The notes beneath the pieces were generated by a model. It did no database searches. It was not told the origin of the DNA and was given only the letters and a program-made list of their open reading frames with translations. From Eledone cirrhosa (taxonomy: Eukaryota), in the NCBI GenBank assembly GCA_964016885.1, contig OZ024742.1, positions 65,224,001-65,288,000 on the forward strand: a DNA stretch of 64,000 nt, given 5' to 3'. This document shows positions 434-51,255 of the stretch, piece by piece. Made by a program: the position numbers and the translations under genes. The stretch's first letter is position 1; each line of letters starts with the position of its first letter.

Positions 434-2625
<2,192 letters not shown>

Positions 2626-2756
2626 GATAGATCTACCAAAAGTTTACGGTAGTGTCCAATCCGTATGAAGAACTCAATGTAATCCGGATATCATGAAAAG
2701 AAGAGATGCATTCAAAAATCACTTTCGGTGAAAGATAAACGGAAAACAGAGTCAAG

Positions 2757-3164
2757 ATAAATTATTAAAAAAATAATGAATAAACAAAGAAACAGTTCCT
2801 TATATTAAACAAAAAAAAGTTCATTATTTTACGATCGTTTCTAGGACATATATGTGTTAGAATAGGTATGCATATTCAAAAGATCTATGTACAAAATTAT
2901 ACAAACTATCAGATAGAATAAAACATACCTTCACATATATATGCTGTCTTCAGAAATAATCATTATTTCTGAAGACAGCATATATATGTGAAGGTATGTT
3001 TTATTCTATCTGATAGTTTGTATAATTTTGTACATAGATCTTTTGAATATGCATACCTATTCTAACACATATATGTCCTAGAAACGATCGTAAAATAATG
3101 AACTTTTTTTGTTTAATATAAGGAACTGTTTCTTTGTTTATTCATTATTTTTTTAATAATTTAT
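2757..3164. repeat. Near-perfect inverted repeat, arms 204/203 bp, 1-nt spacer (C2961)
   Basis: 2757-2960 is the reverse complement of 2962-3164 apart from one indel in an A/T run. Confidence 0.95.
2961..3100 (+). ncRNA. Type I hammerhead-ribozyme-like motif with ~105 nt stem II (mirror copy on minus strand, 2822-2960)
   Basis: cattattt-CTGAAGA(2969-75)-[2976-3080 hairpin]-GAAAC-GATC-GTA(3090-92)-aaataatg; 8-bp stem I, palindromic stem III ACGATCGT. Confidence 0.65.
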
Positions 3165-6352
<3,188 letters not shown>

Positions 6353-22084: not shown

Positions 22085-23659
22085 TGATTTCTGGTGACAA
22101 GGTCACAAATTTTAGTGTAGGAGTATAATCTAATAAATTGACCCTAACAATTGTTATTTTATCGAGTCCCTAGGGATTGAAAAGATAATTAGTTATAAAC
22201 CTGATAGGATTTGTACTTACATATATAAGGGGCCAAAACAAAATACTGCAAGGCATTTTGTCAATTATTATAGAATCTGTCACTCCTTTAGTTGATAGTA
22301 ATAAATAATGATGGTGGTAGCAATGGTTGTGGTGATGGTGGTGGTTGGTAGTAATAATAATAATAATTGTTTCTACTTTTGGTACAAGGCCAGCAATTAC
22401 TCCAGTACATTACTGGCACTTTATTTTATTAACCCAGTAAGGATGAAAGACAAAGTTAACCTCAACAGGATTTAAACTCAGAATGTAAAGGAGCATAACT
22501 CTATACTGCAAAGCATGGTGTCTGACGCTCCACCGATACTGCCAATCCACTGCCCTTATGTGATAATAATGATTTCTAATTCAGGTACAAGGCCAGCAAT
22601 TTGAGGGGAAGGGAAATTCGATTAAATTGGCCCTAATGTTTTACTAGTATTTTATTTGATCAAACTTGGAAGGATGAAAGGGCAAGTTGACCTCAGCAGG
22701 ATTTGACCCCAGAATGTAACAGTCCTAATCCACTACCATAAGTGGTTTCTCATTTAGGCATAAGGCCTGCCATTTCAGGTGGGAAGAGAAAAGTAATTTA
22801 CCATTTCAAGTGGGAAGAGAAAAGTAATTTACCTGACAGATACTTTATTTTATCAACCCTCAAAAGGATGAAAGGCAAACTTGATCTGAGCAGGATTTGA
22901 ACTCAGAACATAAAGAGCCACAACAAATATTGCAAAGCATTCTGTCTGCCTATGAGTCTCCTATCTAAATAAAATTAATGATTTCTAATTTAAGCACAAG
23001 GCCAGCAGATTTTGTAGGGAGGGAAAAGTCAAGTAAACTGACCCCAGTTATTTTATGGATGAAGGGCAAAATTGATCCCAGAACAAAAACTGCCAAGTAT
23101 TCTATCATTGCCTAACGATTCTGCCAATCCACTGTCCATTGTTCACTCATAATAATGGTTTCTAAAGCCATCATTCTACCATATAATATAATGGTTCCTG
23201 ATTTAGGCACAAGGCTAACAATTTTGGAGAAGGGGATCAATTAAATCGACCCCAGTGTGTTCCTGGAACTTTATTTTATCAACCCCTTAAGGATGAAAGG
23301 CAAAGCTAACCTTGGCAGGGTTTGAAATCAGAACGTAAAGAGCTGTAACGTTATCTTGCGAAGCATGGTGCCTGATGCCCTATTGATTCTACCAATCCAC
23401 TACCCATCTTTCACCCAAAATAATGGTTTCTAACATAGGACAAAGCCAGCTTTCTACTATATAATATAATAGTAATAATAATTGTTTCTACTTTTGGCAC
23501 AAGGCCAGCAATTATCCAGTGCATTACTGGTACTTTATTTTATCGACACTGTAAGAATGAAAGGCAAAGTTAACCTCGGCAGGATTTGAACTCAGATCAG
23601 AAAGGGGCGTAACTCTGTACTACAAAGCATGTTGTCCGACCCTCTACCGATACTGCCAA
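22085..23659 (-). mobile_element. Head-to-tail stack of about seven SINE family A copies
   Basis: Repeated tttcta..ggcacaaggccagcaat...aggatgaaaggcaaag...ggatttgaactcag units starting near 22085, 22367, 22570, 22744, 22980, 23193, 23482, all in the same orientation. Confidence 0.85.
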
Positions 23660-26227
23660 ATGAACAAAGAAGAGCAACAAGACCCGACCCTCTACCGATA
23701 CTGCCAAATGAACAAAGAAGAGCAACAAGACCCGACCCTCTACTGACACTGCCAAATGAACAAAGAAGAGCAACAAGACCCGACCCTCTACTGACACTGC
23801 CAAATGAACAAAGAAGAGCAACAAGACCCGACCCTCTACCGATACTGCCAAATGAACAAAGAAGAGCAGCAAGACCCGACCCTCTACCGATACTGCCAAA
23901 TGAACAAAGAAGAGCAACAAGACCCGACCCTCTACTGACACTGCCAAATGAACAAAGAAGAGCAACAAGACCCGACCCTCTACTGACACTGCCAAATGAA
24001 CAAAGAAGAGCAACAAGACCCGACCCTCTACCGATACTGCCAAATGAACAAAGAAGAGCAACAAGACCCGACCCTCTACCGATACTGCCAAATGAACAAA
24101 GAAGAGCAACAAGACCCGACCCTCTACCGATACTGCCAAATGAACAAAGAAGAGCAACAAGACCCGACCCTCTACCGATACTGCCAAATGAACAAAGAAG
24201 AGCAACAAGACCCGACCCTCTACCGATACTGCCAAATGAACAAAGAAGAGCAACAAGACCCGACCCTCTACCGATACTGCCAAATGAACAAAGAAGAGCA
24301 ACAAGACCCGACCCTCTACCGATACTGCCAAATGAACAAAGAAGAGCAACAAGACCCGACCCTCTACCGATACTGCCAAATGAACAAAGAAGAGCAACAA
24401 GACCCGACCCTCTACCGATACTGCCAAATGAACAAAGAAGAGCAACAAGATCCGACCCTCTACCGATACTGCCAAATGAACAAAGAAGAGCAACAAGACC
24501 CGACCCTCTACCGATACTGCCAAATGAACAAAGAAGAGCAACAAGACCCGACCCTCTACCGATACTGCCAAATGAACAAAGAAGAGCAACAAGACCCGAC
24601 CCTCTACCGATACTGCCAAATGAACAAAGAAGAGCAACAAGACCCGACCCTCTACCGATACTGCCAAATGAACAAAGAAGAGCAACAAGACCCGACCCTC
24701 TACCGATACTGCCAAATGAACAAAGAAGAGCAACAAGACCCGACCCTCTACCGATACTGCCAAATGAACAAAGAAGAGCAACAAGACCCGACCCTCTACC
24801 GATACTGCCAAATGAACAAAGAAGAGCAACAAGACCCGACCCTCTACCGATACTGCCAAATGAACAAAGAAGAGCAACAAGACCCGACCCTCTACCGATA
24901 CTGCCAAATGAACAAAGAAGAGCAACAAGACCCGACCCTCTACCGATACTGCCAAATGAACAAAGAAGAGCAACAAGACCCGACCCTCTACCGATACTGC
25001 CAAATGAACAAAGAAGAGCAACAAGACCCGACCCTCTACCGATACTGCCAAATGAACAAAGAAGAGCAACAAGACCCGACCCTCTACCGATACTGCCAAA
25101 TGAACAAAGAAGAGCAACAAGACCCGACCCTCTACCGATACTGCCAAATGAACAAAGAAGAGCAACAAGACCCGACCCTCTACCGATACTGCCAAATGAA
25201 CAAAGAAGAGCAACAAGACCCGACCCTCTACCGATACTGCCAAATGAACAAAGAAGAGCAACAAGACCCGACCCTCTACCGATACTGCCAAATGAACAAA
25301 GAAGAGCAACAAGACCCGACCCTCTACCGATACTGCCAAATGAACAAAGAAGAGCAACAAGACCCGACCCTCTACCGATACTGCCAAATGAACAAAGAAG
25401 AGCAACAAGACCCGACCCTCTACCGATACTGCCAAATGAACAAAGAAGAGCAACAAGACCCGACCCTCTACCGATACTGCCAAATGAACAAAGAAGAGCA
25501 ACAAGACCCGACCCTCTACCGATACTGCCAAATGAACAAAGAAGAGCAACAAGACCCGACCCTCTACCGATACTGCCAAATGAACAAAGAAGAGCAACAA
25601 GACCCGACCCTCTACCGATACTGCCAAATGAACAAAGAAGAGCAACAAGACCCGACCCTCTACCGATACTGCCAAATGAACAAAGAAGAGCAACAAGACC
25701 CGACCCTCTACCGATACTGCCAAATGAACAAAGAAGAGCAACAAGACCCGACCCTCTACCGATACTGCCAAATGAACAAAGAAGAGCAACAAGACCCGAC
25801 CCTCTACCGATACTGCCAAATGAACAAAGAAGAGCAACAAGACCCGACCCTCTACCGATACTGCCAAATGAACAAAGAAGAGCAACAAGACCCGACCCTC
25901 TACCGATACTGCCAAATGAACAAAGAAGAGCAACAAGACCCGACCCTCTACCGATACTGCCAAATGAACAAAGAAGAGCAACAAGACCCGACCCTCTACC
26001 GATACTGCCAAATGAACAAAGAAGAGCAACAAGACCCGACCCTCTACCGATACTGCCAAATGAACAAAGAAGAGCAACAAGACCCGACCCTCTACCGATA
26101 CTGCCAAATGAACAAAGAAGAGCAACAAGACCCGACCCTCTACCGATACTGCCAAATGAACAAAGAAGAGCAACAAGACCCGACCCTCTACCGATACTGC
26201 CAAATGAACAAAGAAGAGCAACAAGAC
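23636..26227. repeat. Tandem satellite, 54 x 48 bp (SINE A-box head plus flank)
   Basis: Unit ccgaccctctaccgatactgccaa-atgaacaaagaagagcaacaagac; 2592 bp = 54 units. Confidence 0.97.
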
Positions 26228-27070: not shown

Positions 27071-27613
27071 TATATAGAGGGTGTCCCCACCAAAACATGT
27101 ATACACACTTTGATTACCTGTACAGGCAATATCTATTAGAATGCTGTTGAAGTGTGTATACATTTTGGGGAACACATAATATATGTGTGTGTGTTAATAT
27201 AATGTCATCTTGTCATCCATCTCTTTCAATTGACTACAGAGCATGTGTGAGAAAAATGTTTGTTTTAATAAGACAGAAAAAAGAAATTAATAAAAAAAAA
27301 ATAGGAAGAAGATGAAGAATATAAGGACAAACATCTTGAAATTTTGTAACATTGAATGAAAATATGTGATGTTAAAGAACTTGCCTTTGAGTGTAGGAAA
27401 ATCTCTTTGGTGACTCTTAATTCCATTGCTACACACCTTGCTGGCTGGATTAAAACCAGTACAGGAATTTGGGCCCCAAATGTCTGATACCCAGTGTCAG
27501 ACTTAGGACAAATGAGGCCCTCTGTTAGTTATGAGGCCCTGTGCTTAAGCACATCTAAGCACAGCAGTAAATCTAGCACTGATCTAACCAGATGACATTA
27601 TTTTTGAGATAAT

Positions 27614-27800
27614 GGCGGTGGATTGGCAGTATCGGTAGAGGGTCGGACGCCATGCTTTCCAGCATAGTTACGTCCCTTTCCGATCTGAGTTCAAATCCCG
27701 CCGAGGTTGACTTTGCCTTTCATCCTTACGGGGTCGATAAAATAAAGTACCAGTAATGCACTGGGTAATTGCTGGCCTTGTGCCTAAAGTAGAAACAATT
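27614..27800 (+). mobile_element. SINE family A, full length (tRNA-derived, Meta-domain-like core)
   Basis: A box TGGCAGTATCGG, B box GAGTTCAAATCC, core gcctttcatccttacggggtcgataaaataaagtaccag, tail ccttgtgcctaaagtagaaacaattatt; ~18-bp TSD attatttttga(g/a)ataatg. Confidence 0.9.
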
Positions 27801-27869
27801 ATTTTTGAAATAATGTCATTTATTCAGTTATGCTTCTAGCTGGTTTAATTAACCCTCTCATTACCATAT

Positions 27870-44317: not shown

Positions 44318-45044
44318 TGCTACATGGCAATGATGTTTAGTGATTTATTTATCGACCGCAGGAAATTATTATATATTATATAATGGCCAGGTTCATAAGC
44401 AAGTTATATATTTTATTGTATTTCATATATTTTGCTGGCTTTGTGCCTAAATTAGAAAACAATATTTAACGTATTTTCATTTCTTATAAAGATGTCAGGT
44501 TTTAACCTAAAAGTTCAATTGACACACTGAGTAGTCTCATCCCCCACTGGGGTCGATATCAAACATTATGGGAACCTTGCTTTAGAATGGTGTCAACTAC
44601 CTTAACCATTATGGTAACGTCGTCTTTATATGCAGACAAGCTATGAAAACAGGAGCAGCTGTTATATAGCGATGGTCAATCCCATTGAAAACTATCGATT
44701 GATCGAAACTGTTCTCACCGAAGCTAGGTTTGTTGTCGTCGTCGTCGCTGACGCCGCCACCACCAACACCACCACTAATAATGATTTCTTTATTAACCAC
44801 AAGGGTTTACATAAAGTAGACATTAAGGACAGTGCAGGACAATGCAGGACGGTACAAATGGGCATTTCTGCGTGTAAAAAAACAAAAACAGAGGATGTAA
44901 CAAAAATAACAATGAAAATAACAATGAAAAATTCCCCAATAGGGGGGAGACTTCGGAGGGACATTTGTGGAGAAAGCCCAGTAAAAAGCCACAATGACCC
45001 TGACCACCAAGGCAAGTGCCCTCTCCCAGTTTTCCACCTTTAGT

Positions 45045-48000
45045 TTACAGATATATACTCAGAGTCGGCCCATTCACTCGGGCCATTCTTGCTTCTCTCA
45101 CCCATCTTTCAACAAAATGCTGGGAAGAGAGCACTTCCCTCTCTACTCTGATTTTCCTTTTCAAATGAAATTTGAAAAAGTCAATCAGAGCATCACCGAA
45201 GAGGTAAGTGCTCGTCTTCAGCCCTTTCAAACGTGTCCACCATACTATCTCTTTCGCCATGGCCACCAGACAGATAAAAACTGCCTGCCCTTCCCGGCTA
45301 AAGGAGGAGGGCGGGGCAATCCTCACGATAGACTCAGATGATAGCTGGATCCGTCCTAAACGCGACAGCATGTGTTCGACATAAACCCACAAGTCAGCAA
45401 TTTTCGGACACTGGACGAGTGCGTGCAGGACGGTTTCGTCGCCCTGCGCGCATCTCGGACATGCCCGGCTGACGGCACCTCCATGCCTGTAGAGTTTATC
45501 CCGAACTGGCAAGGCTCCTCGGTAGCACTGCCAGGCCAGAGATTTCTGGAAGTTGTCCATAGGCCCTGGCCCGAAAGTTCTTCCGAAGAGATTGGCTAGT
45601 TGATTTTCGTCGACGCCTAGAGTTTCCCCAAGTACGTCGTCGCTCTTCCCCTCCACTAATCCTCTATAGAACGCCGAGGTGGAGTTTCCACCGATCACAT
45701 TGCCCGATTGGTCGAGGGCTGTGAGCGCCTGAAGACATTCCAGTCTCCAGGCGCTCCCTCTCGGTCTTCGCTTGACCCAGGACTGCAGCTCCGTCAAGGA
45801 AACGAGCTGGGGAAAAACGCGTCTAGCAAACGGGGACCACACCTGATCACCGTCGAGGAAGAGGTGGAGATGTCGTAGCCTGAGCGCGTGCCTGCGCATC
45901 ATCAGCCACGGCATGCCCAGCCCTCCACGTAGCGGGTGTTGACAACAGATGGACCGCCTGACCATCGGAGCACGTCCCTTCCACAAAAAGCGAAAGAGCA
46001 AACGCTCCAGCGCAGTCAGGCGAGGCTTAGGACAAGGTACGACGGTTAGGCGGTAGCAGATGACAGACGCGATGTACGCGTTAGCCACCTCCGCTCGACC
46101 TTTCAGGGATAGCTTCCTCTCCGCCCATTTCTGGGTGAGAGAAGCCACCCTGCTCGTCACCTCGTCCCAGTTTTTGTCCGTCTGGAGGTCCGGACCGAAC
46201 CAGACCCCTAGCAATTTAACCGGTCCGTCCGTCCAGCGCCCGACGACGCTGTTGGACGGCATGGACCTGCCTCTCCAGGTGCCGAGCTGCAGGCCCACTG
46301 ACTTTTCCTGGTTGATCATTGCTCCTGTCACCGCTTCGTATTCTCTTAGTGTAGTGCCGATCGCCTCGATGTGTTTGGCGTTCGACACCACTACGGTGAC
46401 ATCGTCCGCATATGCTGACACGGATCTTCCGCATCCTAGTTCGCGCGGGACTCCCCTCAACGTCTCCAGTTTGTGCAGTAATGGCTCGAGCGTCAATACG
46501 TACAAGAGGGACGAGAGGGGACATCCTTGGCGGACCGAGCGCATGATGTTGAACGGTTCCGACAGGTGACCGTTCACTCTCACCACAGAGCAGATGTCGC
46601 TGTGCATGGCAGCGATCCAGCCTCTGAAGACGGGCCCAAAGCCAGCCGCCCTCAGGACTGCCGCTAGGTAACGATGGTCGACCCTATCGAAAGCTTTCGA
46701 CTGATCTAAATTGATCAAGGACCCACCCGTGCCAGGTTCCCTAGCTACCCTCTCTACGATGTATCGCATGAGGTGGAGGTTGTCGTGGATGGATCTGTCG
46801 GGAATGGCGCATGTCTGCGCCTCTCCCACCAGACCACCAACGACAAGCGCCAACCTCTTTGCTAGCACCTTGGCCAAAATCTTAAACTCTGTGTTTAGCA
46901 GAGTTATGGGCCGGAAATTGTCTATGTTATCCCCCTTGTTCGGATCCTTTCTCAGCAGTGCCACCGCTCCTCGGCTCACAGAACTGGGAATTCTCCCGTT
47001 CTGTTGCCAGTTGCAGTAGACGTCCGCCAAGAGGCCTCCGAACAAGTCTGGCATCTGTACGTAAAGTTCATAGGGCAGACCATCCAAACCAGGCGATTTA
47101 CCCCTTGTGCAGCCAGTCATTGCCTCCCGTACTTCAGCGGCTGTTATCGGCTTTTCGCAACACCTCGCCTCAGTGGCCGAGAGCCGCGGCAGTCCGTCGA
47201 GGTAGACACTAAAGTCCATCCCTCTACCCGGCCCCCCGCTGCCCCCGAACAGCTGAGCGAAGTGTCGCTGAAAAGCTTCACACATTTGCCCGGGATCGAG
47301 TAGCATGCGCCCGTCGTGGTCCACCAAAGACCGGATCGTGGCTTTGTTGCCACGACGCGCCTCCGCCACTCGGGCCCATTGAACGGCTTTCGTCCCCTCG
47401 TGTCTGAGAGCACGCACCCTAGCTCTGACAACGCAGCCTTCGTGCTTTGCATTGAAGAATTGGTCAAGGGCCAATTTCGCCGCAAGCACGTCGGTCGCAA
47501 TGCCTTTGCTAAGCGCCTCGTCTAATTTTCTAACTAGTTCTCCCTCTGCTCTATTTTTCTCTATTGCTAAAGCCTTACTAAACCTAATCGATTCTATTCT
47601 AATCGCTCTTTTCAGAGCAAACCACCACTTGTTGTTGACGATGGCCCCCGTCAACGCCCGCTTAACTAGTTCGCTAATCCGGTCTCTGTAGGCCTTGCGC
47701 GCTGGTAAGGACGCGTTTAGCTTCCAGTAGCCGGGTCCTCGTCTATGAAGCCTATCTAAGTCAAGCACACAGGTCACGAATTTGTGGTCCGTGTAGCTGA
47801 CTATCTTGAATTGTGGACAGCCTATGCTAGACCTATCTATTTCCCTACAAAATACTCTATCTAGATATGATCTGGATGACCCTATGCGGTTTGTCCAAGT
47901 CCACATTGGCACATTCGGGAAATCCAATCGGTACCTGTCAGACAGTTCAAAACGCCTGAGCAGGTTGGTGAGGCTCTTGCACCCTCCACCCCTATCCGCT

Positions 48001-48464
48001 AATCCCACACAGTCCCAGCGTGCATCTAAGATCCCGTTCCAGTCGCCCACTAACACTAAAGAGCGGGACGTTCCAAGAAAGGTCTCCAGACGCCGGAAGA
48101 AATCAGGCCGCCCTGCTCCTGTCGGGGCATAGACGGCCACTAGCCTGAAAGCTTGCCCGTCTCCGCTGGTCACGTCCAGCACCACCAGCTTACCCTCTGG
48201 GTCCAGGAAGATGGCCCGTATGGCGAGATCCAAACCTCTCCGAGAAAGCACAGCAACTCCTCCACCCGATCCAGGACGGCTGGGAGATGCGTACACATCG
48301 TAGCCGCCGAAGATCGGTGCGAAGGCCCGTGCTTCGGAGATTCTGGTCTCACTGATGGCCACTACATCTATGTTTAGTGACCTGAGGTTGTTGAGCAGGT
48401 GACCCTGCTTCCATGACGACCCCAAGCCACGCGCATTTATGCTGCCTATTCTGAGTGAGGTCAT
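45045..48464 (-). CDS. ORF2 polyprotein: APE endonuclease, reverse transcriptase, C-terminal zinc finger (1139 aa)
   Basis: APE motifs SINARGL, ISET, VYAP, GDWN, YLDRVF, TDH; RT motifs KSPGLDG, NFRPITLLN, LDQSKAFDRV, VRQGCPLS, YADD, LLGV; CPRC..ETVLHAL.QC. Confidence 0.96.
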   Translation of the reverse strand: MTSLRIGSINARGLGSSWKQGHLLNNLRSLNIDVVAISETRISEARAFAPIFGGYDVYASPSRPGSGGGVAVLSRRGLDLAIRAIFLDPEGKLVVLDVTSGDGQAFRLVAVYAPTGAGRPDFFRRLETFLGTSRSLVLVGDWNGILDARWDCVGLADRGGGCKSLTNLLRRFELSDRYRLDFPNVPMWTWTNRIGSSRSYLDRVFCREIDRSSIGCPQFKIVSYTDHKFVTCVLDLDRLHRRGPGYWKLNASLPARKAYRDRISELVKRALTGAIVNNKWWFALKRAIRIESIRFSKALAIEKNRAEGELVRKLDEALSKGIATDVLAAKLALDQFFNAKHEGCVVRARVRALRHEGTKAVQWARVAEARRGNKATIRSLVDHDGRMLLDPGQMCEAFQRHFAQLFGGSGGPGRGMDFSVYLDGLPRLSATEARCCEKPITAAEVREAMTGCTRGKSPGLDGLPYELYVQMPDLFGGLLADVYCNWQQNGRIPSSVSRGAVALLRKDPNKGDNIDNFRPITLLNTEFKILAKVLAKRLALVVGGLVGEAQTCAIPDRSIHDNLHLMRYIVERVAREPGTGGSLINLDQSKAFDRVDHRYLAAVLRAAGFGPVFRGWIAAMHSDICSVVRVNGHLSEPFNIMRSVRQGCPLSSLLYVLTLEPLLHKLETLRGVPRELGCGRSVSAYADDVTVVVSNAKHIEAIGTTLREYEAVTGAMINQEKSVGLQLGTWRGRSMPSNSVVGRWTDGPVKLLGVWFGPDLQTDKNWDEVTSRVASLTQKWAERKLSLKGRAEVANAYIASVICYRLTVVPCPKPRLTALERLLFRFLWKGRAPMVRRSICCQHPLRGGLGMPWLMMRRHALRLRHLHLFLDGDQVWSPFARRVFPQLVSLTELQSWVKRRPRGSAWRLECLQALTALDQSGNVIGGNSTSAFYRGLVEGKSDDVLGETLGVDENQLANLFGRTFGPGPMDNFQKSLAWQCYRGALPVRDKLYRHGGAVSRACPRCAQGDETVLHALVQCPKIADLWVYVEHMLSRLGRIQLSSESIVRIAPPSSFSREGQAVFICLVAMAKEIVWWTRLKGLKTSTYLFGDALIDFFKFHLKRKIRVEREVLSSQHFVERWVREARMARVNGPTLSIYL

Positions 48465-48499
48465 GTTTAAAATAGAGTGGAAAAGATGGGAAAGACCAC

Positions 48500-50596
48500 T
48501 TACCGTACTTTTGGTAGAGGAGGGATGGTTTTTACATCCCTTTTCACTTGATCGTCTGGTGAAGGGACCGTTGAATCGTCCCTTCGGCTGGTCGTCGGCT
48601 CTTCTAAGAGAATGTCTGAATATACTCTTCGATTGATGGTTCCTCCTAGGTCCCTGAAATCACCAACTGCGTTGGGGAATTTCGTTTTAATGTTTGTGTA
48701 TTGTTTCTGTGCTATTTTTAGCAGTCTTATGTTAGTTGGCGTTTTGATTGGTGCTGGTATTATGTAGTCCTGTTGTGAAATGTCTGTGTGTTCAATTATG
48801 TAAGTCATTAGTTTCTTGTTGTGTGTGTTTATTGCCGTGCATTTGTTTTTCTGGGGGTGGGGTGTGGTTCTGCTATTTTCTTGTCGTTGTTGCTGGGTGT
48901 GTGTGTTTTGTTGTTGTGTTTGCGATGTTGGTGCTTGTGGTGGTGGTGTTGAAGGTGTTGTTGGCGGTGGGGTTGTCGCCGGTGGTGATGGTGGCGCTAG
49001 TGTGGGTGGTGATGGTGTTGGTGTTGTTGCTGCTGTGGGTCTCTTTGCAGTAGACTTTACCCTTTTCTCATTTCTTTCCTCCCTTTTCAAAGGCGACGAT
49101 GCGCTGCTTCTGCGTTTGTGCCTTCTTACGACCTTTTGCCATCTCTCTCCCACCTCACACTCCATGTCTGATTCTGTGAGGTCGGGGAGGGGTACCAACT
49201 CCACTCTTTCACTTGTTGTTGTTGGTGATGTTTGCACTGGAGTCTCTGTTGCAGCTGCATTTGGTATTGCTGTTGTTGTTGTTAGTATTTCCACTGCTGC
49301 TGCTGTTTTTGATTTCCGTGGAGTGGGTATGGGTGCCACGGGCCTATCGTTCCTGGTTGCCGCTTGTCCTGTTGCTGGTAGCCGTGGAGCCGGATTCGGA
49401 AGGAGGGGGGTTTTCTCCTTTCTCAGGGTCTTCTCGTTGCAGAAGGCCCTGAGGTGAGTCTTCGATCCACAGCGAAAGCATTTCGGGCGTTTGCCCTCAA
49501 CACTTATGGGCAGTTGAGTGCCGTTATCGAAGTCTATCACATCCGGGATAGCTTCGATGCACTCCTGGTTGGTTTGGATTAGCATCTCAATGGAGGAGCC
49601 GACCCAATCTTCTCTTACTTTTTTCTGTACTTGCAGTACAGTTGTTTTGTCCTCGATTCCGACGAGGACAGACGCGGCCAGCCAAGAAGGGGTCATTCCG
49701 GGGGGGACGTGGGTCAGTTTGACCCTCACAATTTTTTGCCCGCAGTAGGAGGGCACCAACACCATTTCCTCGCTCCTTAGGGTCACTACTGATTGGGCCT
49801 TTGCCTCCTGGGGTGTGGCAAAAAGTACGTCTACGGTGGCGTATTTTTTGCCTCGGGTGATGTGCGTTTTCCTCTGCCACACAGACCCCAAGGCTTTTTG
49901 TATTTGGGCCTCTGTGGCTCTTTCCACCCTACGGGATTTTGTACTTACTGTACGGTACGTGACCGTACAGTGCTCTTGGGTTTCGAAAAAATTTTTCGCT
50001 GCCTTGCAGATTGCTCGGTGTCCGTTCTTTGTCACCATCTTCTTCGCTTCCTCTAATTCCTCATTTGTTATGAGGATTGTTTCCAAGTTTTTCGCAATAC
50101 CTGCAAATGAGATTGGTTTTTCTCTGCTGTTGTTGTTGTCGTCAGAGCTGCTGGTACTTTTGTTGTTGCTGCAGGTACTACGACTACTGCCTCCGCCGCT
50201 GTTGCTGTGGTTGTTGTTGGTGTTGCTGCTGCTAATGCTGTTGTTGTTTATGCTGCTGGTGATGCTGTTGCGGCTGCTACTGTTGTTTTCATTGTCACTG
50301 TTGCTGTTGTTATTACGGCTGCTACTGCTATTATTCCTGACGTCAGACGAATGAACTGGGTTTTCGTATTTCCCGCACACCTGTTTCGTCGCTGTCGTCG
50401 TCGTCGTGGAGAAACCTTGCACGCTTTGCACGAGACTTTTCTTTTCTTTCGTCACTTGCGAAAGAGAAGGGAGGGAGAGAGACACATTTAAAGAAGGGAG
50501 GGAGAGAGACAATCTTCTCTCTGCTGTAGTGATGATTGAGGAAGAAGAAGACGGAATGAGTGGGAGTGACGTATGAAATTTCTTTTTCGTAGCCAT
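48500..50596 (-). CDS. ORF1 gag-like nucleic-acid-binding protein (698 aa)
   Basis: CCHC knuckle CFRCGSKTHLRAFC, basic WQKVVRRHKRR segment, N/S-rich and P/T-rich low-complexity regions; lies upstream of ORF2. Confidence 0.88.
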   Translation of the reverse strand: MATKKKFHTSLPLIPSSSSSIITTAERRLSLSLPSLNVSLSLPSLSQVTKEKKSLVQSVQGFSTTTTTATKQVCGKYENPVHSSDVRNNSSSSRNNNSNSDNENNSSSRNSITSSINNNSISSSNTNNNHSNSGGGSSRSTCSNNKSTSSSDDNNNSREKPISFAGIAKNLETILITNEELEEAKKMVTKNGHRAICKAAKNFFETQEHCTVTYRTVSTKSRRVERATEAQIQKALGSVWQRKTHITRGKKYATVDVLFATPQEAKAQSVVTLRSEEMVLVPSYCGQKIVRVKLTHVPPGMTPSWLAASVLVGIEDKTTVLQVQKKVREDWVGSSIEMLIQTNQECIEAIPDVIDFDNGTQLPISVEGKRPKCFRCGSKTHLRAFCNEKTLRKEKTPLLPNPAPRLPATGQAATRNDRPVAPIPTPRKSKTAAAVEILTTTTAIPNAAATETPVQTSPTTTSERVELVPLPDLTESDMECEVGERWQKVVRRHKRRSSASSPLKREERNEKRVKSTAKRPTAATTPTPSPPTLAPPSPPATTPPPTTPSTPPPQAPTSQTQQQNTHTQQQRQENSRTTPHPQKNKCTAINTHNKKLMTYIIEHTDISQQDYIIPAPIKTPTNIRLLKIAQKQYTNIKTKFPNAVGDFRDLGGTINRRVYSDILLEEPTTSRRDDSTVPSPDDQVKRDVKTIPPLPKVR

Positions 50597-50811
50597 GTTG
50601 TTTTTTGTTTAAAATGAAATTTTGGGTACAAAACCCCAATAACTGGTTATTTAACCCCGAAGGGCCAAATAACGGACAGAAAGACCCCTCTCACGAGGAG
50701 GAGGGTGTCTTTATCAACAATTTGGTTCAAGTTTTAAACAATTTACAATTGTTTTAACGGTTAAAAATTACTATACCTTACAGAGCCGAGCCTCCGTCAA
50801 CCATGGCATTC

Positions 50812-51255
50812 AATAATAATAATAATAATAATAATAATGATTTCTGATTTAGGCACAAGGCCCGCAATTTGGGGCAAGGGGAAAGTCGATTAAATCGACC
50901 CCAGTGAGTAACTGGTACTTTATTTTATTTATCGACCTCGTGAGGATGAAAGGCAAAGCTAAACTCAGAACGTAAATGGCTGTAACTATACGCCACCAAG
51001 CATGTTGTCCGATGCTCTACCGAGACTGTCAATCTGCCGCCCTTACTCATAAATGGTTTCTAATATAGGCACAGGTCAATAATTTTTGGTAAGGGGAAAG
51101 TCCTTTAAATCTACCCCAGTGCATCACTGCTACTTTATTTTGTGAAAGGCAAAATTGATATCAGCGGGATTGGTGGGGTTTTAAACCAGAAGGTAAAGAG
51201 CTGTAAGTAAATGCCGCGTTGCATTGTGTCAGACGTCCTGATGTTTCTGTCAGCA
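50812..51255 (-). mobile_element. Two tandem SINE family A copies; the (ATT)9 tail of the first abuts the LINE 5' end
   Basis: Copies at ~50812-51045 and ~51055-51255. Confidence 0.85.

What the first reader, a model, noticed from the sequence alone, without database searches (positions are those of the whole stretch)
44776..50920. Intact Tx1-clade LINE whose 3' end matches the tail of the SINE it is inserted into: candidate ATT-targeting LINE/SINE pair
Seen: the LINE 3' end on + (44776-44804, taataatgatttct-tta-tta-ac-cacaagg) aligns without gaps to the SINE A tail (50832-50860, taataatgatttct-gat-tta-gg-cacaagg), 24/29 identical. Further patchy matches follow in the same order (aaagt.ga..ttaa, cagtg, ggtac). 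The LINE has no poly(A), ends in ATT units, and sits co-oriented in the SINE's (ATT)9 tail. Established: Tx1-clade elements are often sequence-specific (including microsatellite-targeting families), and SINEs borrow 3' tails from partner LINEs. Inference: this Tx1 is the autonomous driver of SINE A and both target ATTAT/(ATT)n. Alternative: the 14-bp match is only a TSD, leaving the extra tta and cacaagg matches to chance or target mimicry.
Basis: partly seen in the sequence, partly recalled or inferred. Interest (0 to 1): 0.85.

Follow-up and report, generated by a model that had tools for sequence, protein, structure and literature searches.

The report
Octopod SINE borrows Tx1-type LINE tail
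A young, intact jumping gene in a probably octopod genome ends in the same short tail as the very abundant small repeat it sits in, and both land at ATT-rich sites, so this family of jumping genes likely copies the small repeat, a tail-sharing partnership I found in print for this group only in plants and an alga.

Summary
The core observation holds. The 24/29 match is real and is not a target-site duplication (TSD): AGAAATC+ATT or a near variant ends all 60 family copies examined. The extra patchy matches are chance.
The LINE is an intact, young L1/Tx1-type element (at least 6,537 copies); 34 of 36 full-length 5' ends follow five or more ATT units. SINE tails match Tx1-type tails above a 4,181-site null and match none of seven other elements' tails. 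Both carry a predicted CUUGU-loop hairpin whose stems covary. Both make TSDs of about 13-19 bp beginning ATTAT, whereas an ATT-tailed CR1-like rival makes none (0 of 25).
Correction: SINE A is old (at most 79% identical to other copies) and sister subfamilies B and C fit its tail as well or better. The partner is likely the lineage, not this subfamily. Mobilisation and formal Tx1 membership are untested. The scan already noted this pairing on other DNA of this genome. New variant of a known kind.

The parts
44783..50811 (-). Full-length L1/Tx1-type LINE, subfamily A (6,029 bp from GAATGCC to GAAATC)
50597..50811 (-). 5' UTR (215 nt); no CTTGT loop here
48500..50596 (-). ORF1, 698 aa, with a CX2CX4HX4C knuckle; no Pfam hit; Atlas look-alikes are CCHC and ZCCHC3-type clusters (0.90-0.93, a lead only)
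45045..48464 (-). ORF2, 1,139 aa from the first ATG: AP-type endonuclease, reverse transcriptase, zf-RVT
44783..45044 (-). 3' UTR (262 nt) ending CCCTTGTGGTTAATAAAGAAATC
44795..44807 (-). Predicted terminal hairpin AACC-CUUGU-GGUU, followed directly by AAUAAA (44789-44794)
   Evidence: predicted, not significant by energy
44776..44782 (-). ATTATTA, LINE tail and target junction
50812..50838 (-). (ATT)9 between the SINE 3' end and the LINE 5' end
50839..51043 (-). SINE A, an old copy of the dominant tRNA-like SINE, ending GCCTAAATCAGAAATC
50851..50863 (-). Predicted SINE hairpin GGGC-CUUGU-GCCU
51051..51252 (-). Second, more decayed SINE copy, head-to-tail upstream of SINE A
27597..27815 (+). 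Younger copy of the same SINE with A/B-box-like motifs and an 18-bp TSD starting ATTATT (27597-27614 and 27798-27815, 17/18 identical); reference example

Best explanation
This is a young, intact L1/Tx1-type LINE of a lineage that lands at ATTAT/(ATT)n and shares a 25-30 nt 3' end with the genome's dominant SINE, which this lineage likely copies in trans. Shown: fixed family 3' end, ATT junctions, tail similarity specific to Tx1-type families, similar TSD lengths, and head-to-tail stacking. Inferred, from the established target-primed reverse transcription pathway: ORF2p binds the CUUGU-loop hairpin and GAAA spacer of either RNA. It nicks the bottom strand at 5'-ATAAT/N, at the left edge of an ATTAT site. 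The freed DNA end pairs with the RNA's AUUAU tail and primes reverse transcription, and a second nick about 13-17 nt further on gives the TSD. Each insertion leaves an ATTAT site right behind its own tail, which explains the LINE arrays, SINE arrays and LINE-in-SINE stacks. SINE A was probably inserted by an older member of the lineage (B/C-like or ancestral), and this subfamily-A copy landed behind it much later.
For: (1) 60 of 60 copies end CCTTGTG-N8-AGAAATC-like then ATT, 42 with the exact window tail. (2) 34 of 36 distinct full-length 5' ends follow 5 or more ATT units; the background for (ATT)4 is 0.0002 per position. (3) Tail scores for three SINE copies against Tx1-type tails B, C and the TATC sibling are reached by 0-8 of 4,181 null sites. 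Seven other tails (2 CR1-like, 2 RTE-like, 2 R4-like, 1 Penelope-like) fall in the bulk of the null. (4) All 7 motif hits outside SINEs in 800 kb are Tx1-type ends. (5) Stems covary around a fixed loop: AACC/GGTT (A, 87 ends), GGCC/GGCC or GGCT (B, 20), AGCC/GGCC (C, 4), TGGC/GCCA or GCCT (SINE, 106 of 163). (6) SINE TSDs were found in 32 of 52 copies: 7-22 bp, median 13.5, and 27 of 32 have ATTAT in the first three positions. ATTAT lies upstream of 27 of 52 SINE heads versus 7% background and 5 of 52 for the reverse motif. (7) Truncated subfamily-A copies have TSDs of 13 bp or more in 5 of 15 and 3 of 11; one B copy has a 13-bp TSD. (8) The ATT-tailed CR1-like family has 0 of 25 TSDs of 8 nt or more. 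(9) Both elements co-occur in coded organism C, with the hairpin letters conserved.
Against: No mobilisation or RNA data. The shared stretch is short and partly AT-rich. The hairpin is not significant by folding energy (z -1.2 to +0.1); in the 48-nt SINE fold another structure wins. The outer pair is mismatched in subfamily C and in 47 of 163 SINE tails, and one distant relative (L043) does not pair well. Subfamily A scores only 4 against one younger SINE copy (86 of 4,181 nulls). The TATC-targeting sibling's tail scores as well as the ATT families' tails, so the tail alone does not name the partner. ATTAT at the TSD start may come from primer pairing with the ATT tail rather than endonuclease choice (PMC6007223 abstract), so it is not independent of the tail. 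Most truncated LINE copies gave no clean TSD, and those were picked for an ATTATT 3' junction. Rival LINEs were sampled from only 800 kb (0.03% of the genome).
Confidence: 0.8

Rival explanations
1. The tails converged or were exchanged because both elements live in ATT runs, and the SINE does not depend on the hairpin; it is moved by relaxed recognition of an ATT tail alone.
For: The shared stretch is only 25-30 nt and the fold is weak. ATT tails occur on unrelated families too. The window LINE sits right behind a SINE tail.
Against: The match lies upstream of the ATT repeat and is specific to Tx1-type tails. The stems show changes on both sides around a fixed loop. A sibling with a different target (TATC) keeps a similar hairpin, so the motif is older than ATT targeting.
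Confidence: 0.11
2. Another LINE (CR1/L2, RTE, R4/Dong, I/Nimb, or one not sampled or extinct) is the real partner of the SINE.
For: A CR1-like family with 9,331 exact motif hits also ends in (ATT)n. In molluscs, reported partners include L2 and CR1 (PMC4824008 and PMC4758252 passages). Sampling covered only 800 kb.
Against: The CR1-like tail scores -1 to -3 and gives no TSDs in 25 truncated copies. RTE-like copies end (GAT)n and R4-like copies end (AAT)n, the opposite strand. The census of sequences upstream of (ATT)3+ found no other family with the SINE-like tail.
Confidence: 0.08
3. The 14-bp match is only a target-site duplication and the rest is chance.
For: In the window alone the 14 bp look like a direct repeat flanking the LINE.
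Against: The same end occurs in 60 of 60 copies with unrelated flanks, and 2,913 genomic sites carry it exactly, followed by (ATT)4.
Confidence: 0.01

Closest known systems
Kibi (TC)n and Koshi (TTC)n of teleosts, and crocodilian Tx1 families on (TTCC)n/(TTTC)n (PMC4494074, passages read)
   Same: L1/Tx1-type two-ORF element with an AP endonuclease that inserts in a microsatellite
   Different: Target is ATTAT/(ATT)n in a mollusc; no tail-sharing SINE is described for those families in the passages read
SINEU and Tx1-Mar of crocodilians (PMC4494074, passages and section 16 read)
   Same: A SINE inferred to be moved by Tx1 elements from shared target choice and overlapping age
   Different: The SINEU link rests on a Mariner target and snRNA-derived 5' heads; here the link is a shared 3' hairpin, a tRNA-like head and an ATT target
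Maize ZmSINE2/3 and sorghum SINEs with LINE1-1_ZM; Chlamydomonas SINEX-3_CR with L1-1_CR (PMC3472496 part 1 of 3; PMC3747384 passages and section 1.4)
   Same: L1-clade LINE sharing a 3' end with a SINE; in the monocot pair, a hairpin with compensatory stems and a conserved loop
   Different: Those are plant and algal pairs (3 of 58 pairs), with 50-80 nt shared and poly(A) or poly(T) ends; here an animal, 25-30 nt shared, an ATT tail and a specific target
Octopus tRNA-derived SINEs OK, OR1, OR2 (Ohshima and Okada 1994; paper not seen; OR1/OR2 cited as CORE-SINEs in PMC4824008 and PMC4758252 passages; the name OK is recalled)
   Same: Abundant tRNA-like octopod SINE
   Different: Identity with these families could not be tested because no sequences were available; I found no partner LINE named for them

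Membership tests
L1 group of non-LTR retrotransposons | ORF2 with N-terminal AP endonuclease, RT and C-terminal zinc motif | tested here: met
   Pfam PF03372, PF00078, PF13966; best PDB match is LINE-1 ORF2p, 181 bits versus 79 for R2
L1 group of non-LTR retrotransposons | RT groups apart from RTE-, CR1- and R4-like RTs | tested here: met
   Quick tree of 54 rows (3 short rows dropped): the six other-clade rows lie on one side of a 99% SH-aLRT branch; outgroup labels are recalled
Tx1 clade | RT phylogeny with Xenopus Tx1L, Kibi, Koshi, Keno references | not testable with these tools
   No reference sequences on hand. The element forms its own 7-row branch (99%), not nested with the one TX1-labelled coral protein; that protein scores 311 bits versus 181 for human L1
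Tx1 clade | ORF1 with a CCHC zinc knuckle (feature recalled) | tested here: met
   CFRCGSKTHLRAFC in ORF1; Atlas CCHC clusters
Tx1 clade | Target sequence preference | tested here: met
   34 of 36 full-length 5' ends follow 5 or more ATT units; 60 of 60 3' ends continue in ATT
Stringent LINE/SINE pair | Shared 3'-terminal sequence | tested here: met
   short (25-30 nt)
Stringent LINE/SINE pair | Conserved 3' stem-loop with compensatory changes | tested here: inconclusive
   Covarying stems across subfamilies, but only 3-4 pairs and no energy support
Stringent LINE/SINE pair | Matching insertion signature | tested here: met
Stringent LINE/SINE pair | Tail needed for mobilisation by the LINE protein | not testable with these tools
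   needs a retrotransposition assay
tRNA-derived SINE | Internal A and B boxes in a tRNA-related head | tested here: inconclusive
   TGGCAGTATCGG and GTTCAAATC in the younger window copy (box patterns recalled); no tRNA call by ARAGORN or by Rfam on the old copy
CORE/V/Deu SINE superfamilies; OR1, OR2 | Conserved central domain | not testable with these tools
   no reference sequences on hand

The most novel reading that the evidence does not exclude
An animal L1/Tx1-type lineage uses stringent, hairpin-based recognition of its RNA (CUUGU loop) together with an ATTAT target, and through it drives the dominant octopod SINE expansion. Intact, near-identical copies make this a ready test of whether stringent recognition is ancestral in the L1 group and was relaxed in mammals.
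Probability: 0.6. Interest if true: 0.62.

Novelty: new variant of a known kind. Interest (0 to 1): 0.47.

Why it matters
SINEs are a major part of octopus repeats (11.6% of O. vulgaris, PMC13282606 part 1), and I found no partner LINE named for them. L1-clade elements are the known exception to tail sharing: 3 of 58 SINE/LINE pairs, all in plants or an alga (PMC3472496). An animal L1/Tx1-type case with a four-pair hairpin, a defined target and many intact copies would let one test how L1-group proteins recognise RNA. It also explains the LINE and SINE stacks in ATT runs of this genome.

Tried and rejected
Patchy matches beyond 29 nt: chance. A second RT-region homolog search timed out. Two metagenome scans found no loci, so I have no tails from distant relatives. 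Rfam gave one weak chance hit, mir-203 at 22 bits against a cut-off of 65. No RNA holder was listed. Runs X9, X14, X17, X4 and X8 had 1-28 contigs laid and are not used. The idea that full-length copies carry their own 5' (ATT)n stayed unresolved. Nine full-length copies with short 3' ATT showed no normal unique-sequence TSD (one had a 50-bp repeat), but several 3' flanks look like later insertions. The 5' mode of 6 units versus a 3' median of 11.5 fits a plain TSD at the left edge of a tract. The split of SINEs into short and long subtypes was crude and is not relied on. The careful tree did not finish; the quick tree is reported.
Full report
Observation. The LINE lies on the minus strand from GAATGCC (50811) to GAAATC (44783). 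It has an open ORF1 of 698 aa and an ORF2 of 1,139 aa with endonuclease, RT and zf-RVT domains. SINE A lies on the same strand at about 51043-50839, with (ATT)9 between the two. The 29-nt match is 24/29 as stated. Beyond it, the claimed patchy matches score below the shuffle mean (17 versus 19.3).

The 14 bp are the LINE's own end. The family is large and young: 6,537 exact hits of a 25-nt 3' UTR word, and the 150 best-scored C-terminal copies are 99-100% identical, many with full frames and some in arrays spaced about 6,060 bp. All 60 fetched copies end in CCTTGTG-N8-AGAAATC or a near variant and continue in ATT, with unrelated flanks; none ends in poly(A). Genome-wide, 2,913 sites carry the exact tail plus (ATT)4, and 145 stop after ATTATT. 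Of 36 distinct full-length 5' ends held, 34 follow five or more ATT units; many of these are the tail of a preceding copy.

Sister subfamilies. A second 3' end, GGCCCTTGTGGCYAATAAA, has 3,740 hits; 23 of the 30 loci fetched for it have ORF2-like sequence upstream, mostly 65-80% identical. A third subfamily (C) and a sibling that ends in TATC repeats also occur. Their 3' UTRs differ but the last 25-30 nt are kept. The nearest named protein relative is from Argonauta hians (60% identity), so the host is probably an octopod. The RT forms its own branch among L1/Tx1-type proteins. Tx1 membership in the Repbase sense could not be tested.

The SINE. An HMM found 168 hits covering 3.2% of 800 kb of evenly spaced genome samples. 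A/B-box-like motifs are present. TSDs were found in 32 of 52 full copies with usable flanks: 7-22 bp, median 13.5, 27 of 32 starting at ATTAT. ATTAT lies just upstream of 27 of 52 heads (20 of 42 without a preceding tail), against 7% background. SINEs therefore land on short ATTAT sites, often in unique DNA, and re-land behind their own tails.

Same signature in the LINE. Among copies picked for a short ATT tail, truncated ones show TSDs of about 13-19 bp in 5 of 15 and 3 of 11. The script's values run to 21 where it reads into the element's first bases. The rest gave none; some of those boundaries look like recombination points. One subfamily-B copy has a 13-bp TSD. Full-length copies show a mode of six ATT units at the 5' side and a median of 11.5 at the 3' side, as expected if the nick falls near the left edge of a tract (inferred). 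The window copy is atypical, with nine units 5' and only ATTATTA 3'; this is unexplained.

Rivals. A census upstream of 133 (ATT)3+ runs (117 after a complexity filter) found four recurrent families: the SINE, Tx1-type ends, a Penelope-like end and a CR1-like end. The CR1-like family is abundant (9,331 hits) but its tail is unlike the SINE's, and 0 of 25 truncated copies have a TSD of 8 nt or more. RTE-like copies end in (GAT)n and R4-like copies in (AAT)n, the opposite strand. These clade labels are recalled from protein features; searches support only the domains and the pairing of rows. In a 3'-anchored comparison against 4,181 null sites, the old SINE A tail scored 13 (B), 12 (C), 10 (A) and 9 (TATC sibling), each reached by 0-2 nulls. 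The seven other tails scored 2 or less. Against two younger SINE copies, subfamily A scored 6 and 4 (8 and 86 nulls), weaker than B and C on the whole.

Hairpin. All these tails can form a 3-4 pair stem around CUUGU (CCUGU in the TATC sibling), with different stems in A, B, C and the SINE. Relative to B, subfamily A changes two pairs on both sides and the SINE changes two others; the SINE form can also be read as a symmetric loss of one C and one G. Folding energies are no better than shuffles, so the case rests on covariation only. I noted the hairpin before consulting earlier findings.

Age. SINE A is at most 79% identical to other copies held, whereas this LINE copy is nearly unchanged. Nearest-neighbour identity of 150 SINE copies has a median of 93% and reaches 99.4%, overlapping the range of subfamily B and older A copies. 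The lineage, not this subfamily, is the likely driver of SINE A; A may drive the youngest SINEs.

Other organisms. Coded organism C holds both elements in bulk (1,908 and 234,464 contigs laid). No variant above threshold falls in the LINE hairpin, and the only one in the SINE hairpin is T>A at the outer position, which completes a pair. Organism D holds the SINE in bulk and 69% of the LINE words.

Literature. Seven searches were run; none listed a paper naming a Tx1 partner for an octopus SINE. Seen: passages of PMC4758252, PMC4824008, PMC5786205, PMC3531059, PMC8967140 and PMC9004415; passages and section 16 of PMC4494074; passages, section 1.4 and part of Table 1 of PMC3747384; part 1 of 3 of PMC3472496 and of PMC13282606; abstract of PMC6007223; listing only of PMC11481361. 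Not seen: Ohshima and Okada 1994 and 2005, Kojima and Fujiwara 2004, Akasaki 2010, Repbase and Dfam entries, and all supplements. Any of these may already record the family or the pair.

Verdict. A real, well-supported candidate pair of a known kind, in an unusual combination: an animal L1/Tx1-type LINE, a shared 3' hairpin and an ATT target. Function is untested. The scan noted the same pairing on other DNA of this genome; those notes are not independent support. Interest 0.47.

Noticed in passing
window 23636-26227: A 48-bp tandem array, 54 copies at 99% identity, whose unit contains the reverse complement of 24 nt of the SINE head with its A-box-like motif: a satellite born from a SINE fragment.
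   Followed up: no
window 434-6330: About 5.9 kb of degenerate (AT)n array.
   Followed up: no
G000:C4:357,937,886-358,017,068 and C1:441,098,534-441,134,910: Head-to-tail arrays of the full LINE at multiples of about 6,060 bp (8 and 6 listed copies). The C1 copies share the same imperfect spacer, which suggests tandem duplication rather than repeated insertion.
   Followed up: partly
L226, L229, L250, L256, L085: Insertions made of only the last 24-37 nt of the LINE, flanked by TSDs of 13-19 bp.
   Followed up: partly
L009, L011, L024, L144, L153: R4/Dong-like elements ending in (AAT)n sit tail-to-tail with Tx1-type copies in the same ATT run, in the opposite orientation.
   Followed up: partly
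L148:4882-4922, L136: A sibling lineage (about 60% ORF2 identity) ends GCC-CCTGT-GGC and continues in TATC-type repeats.
   Followed up: partly
L257: A full-length copy flanked on both sides by the same 50-bp spacer, then another LINE 5' end.
   Followed up: no
P0022 cluster: Eleven ORF2 relatives (30% identity) in Patella caerulea carry near-consecutive locus tags, suggesting a tandem array in a limpet too.
   Followed up: no
L144:4644-7370: A copy with a subfamily-A ORF2 (96%) joined to a subfamily-C 3' end, likely a recombinant.
   Followed up: no
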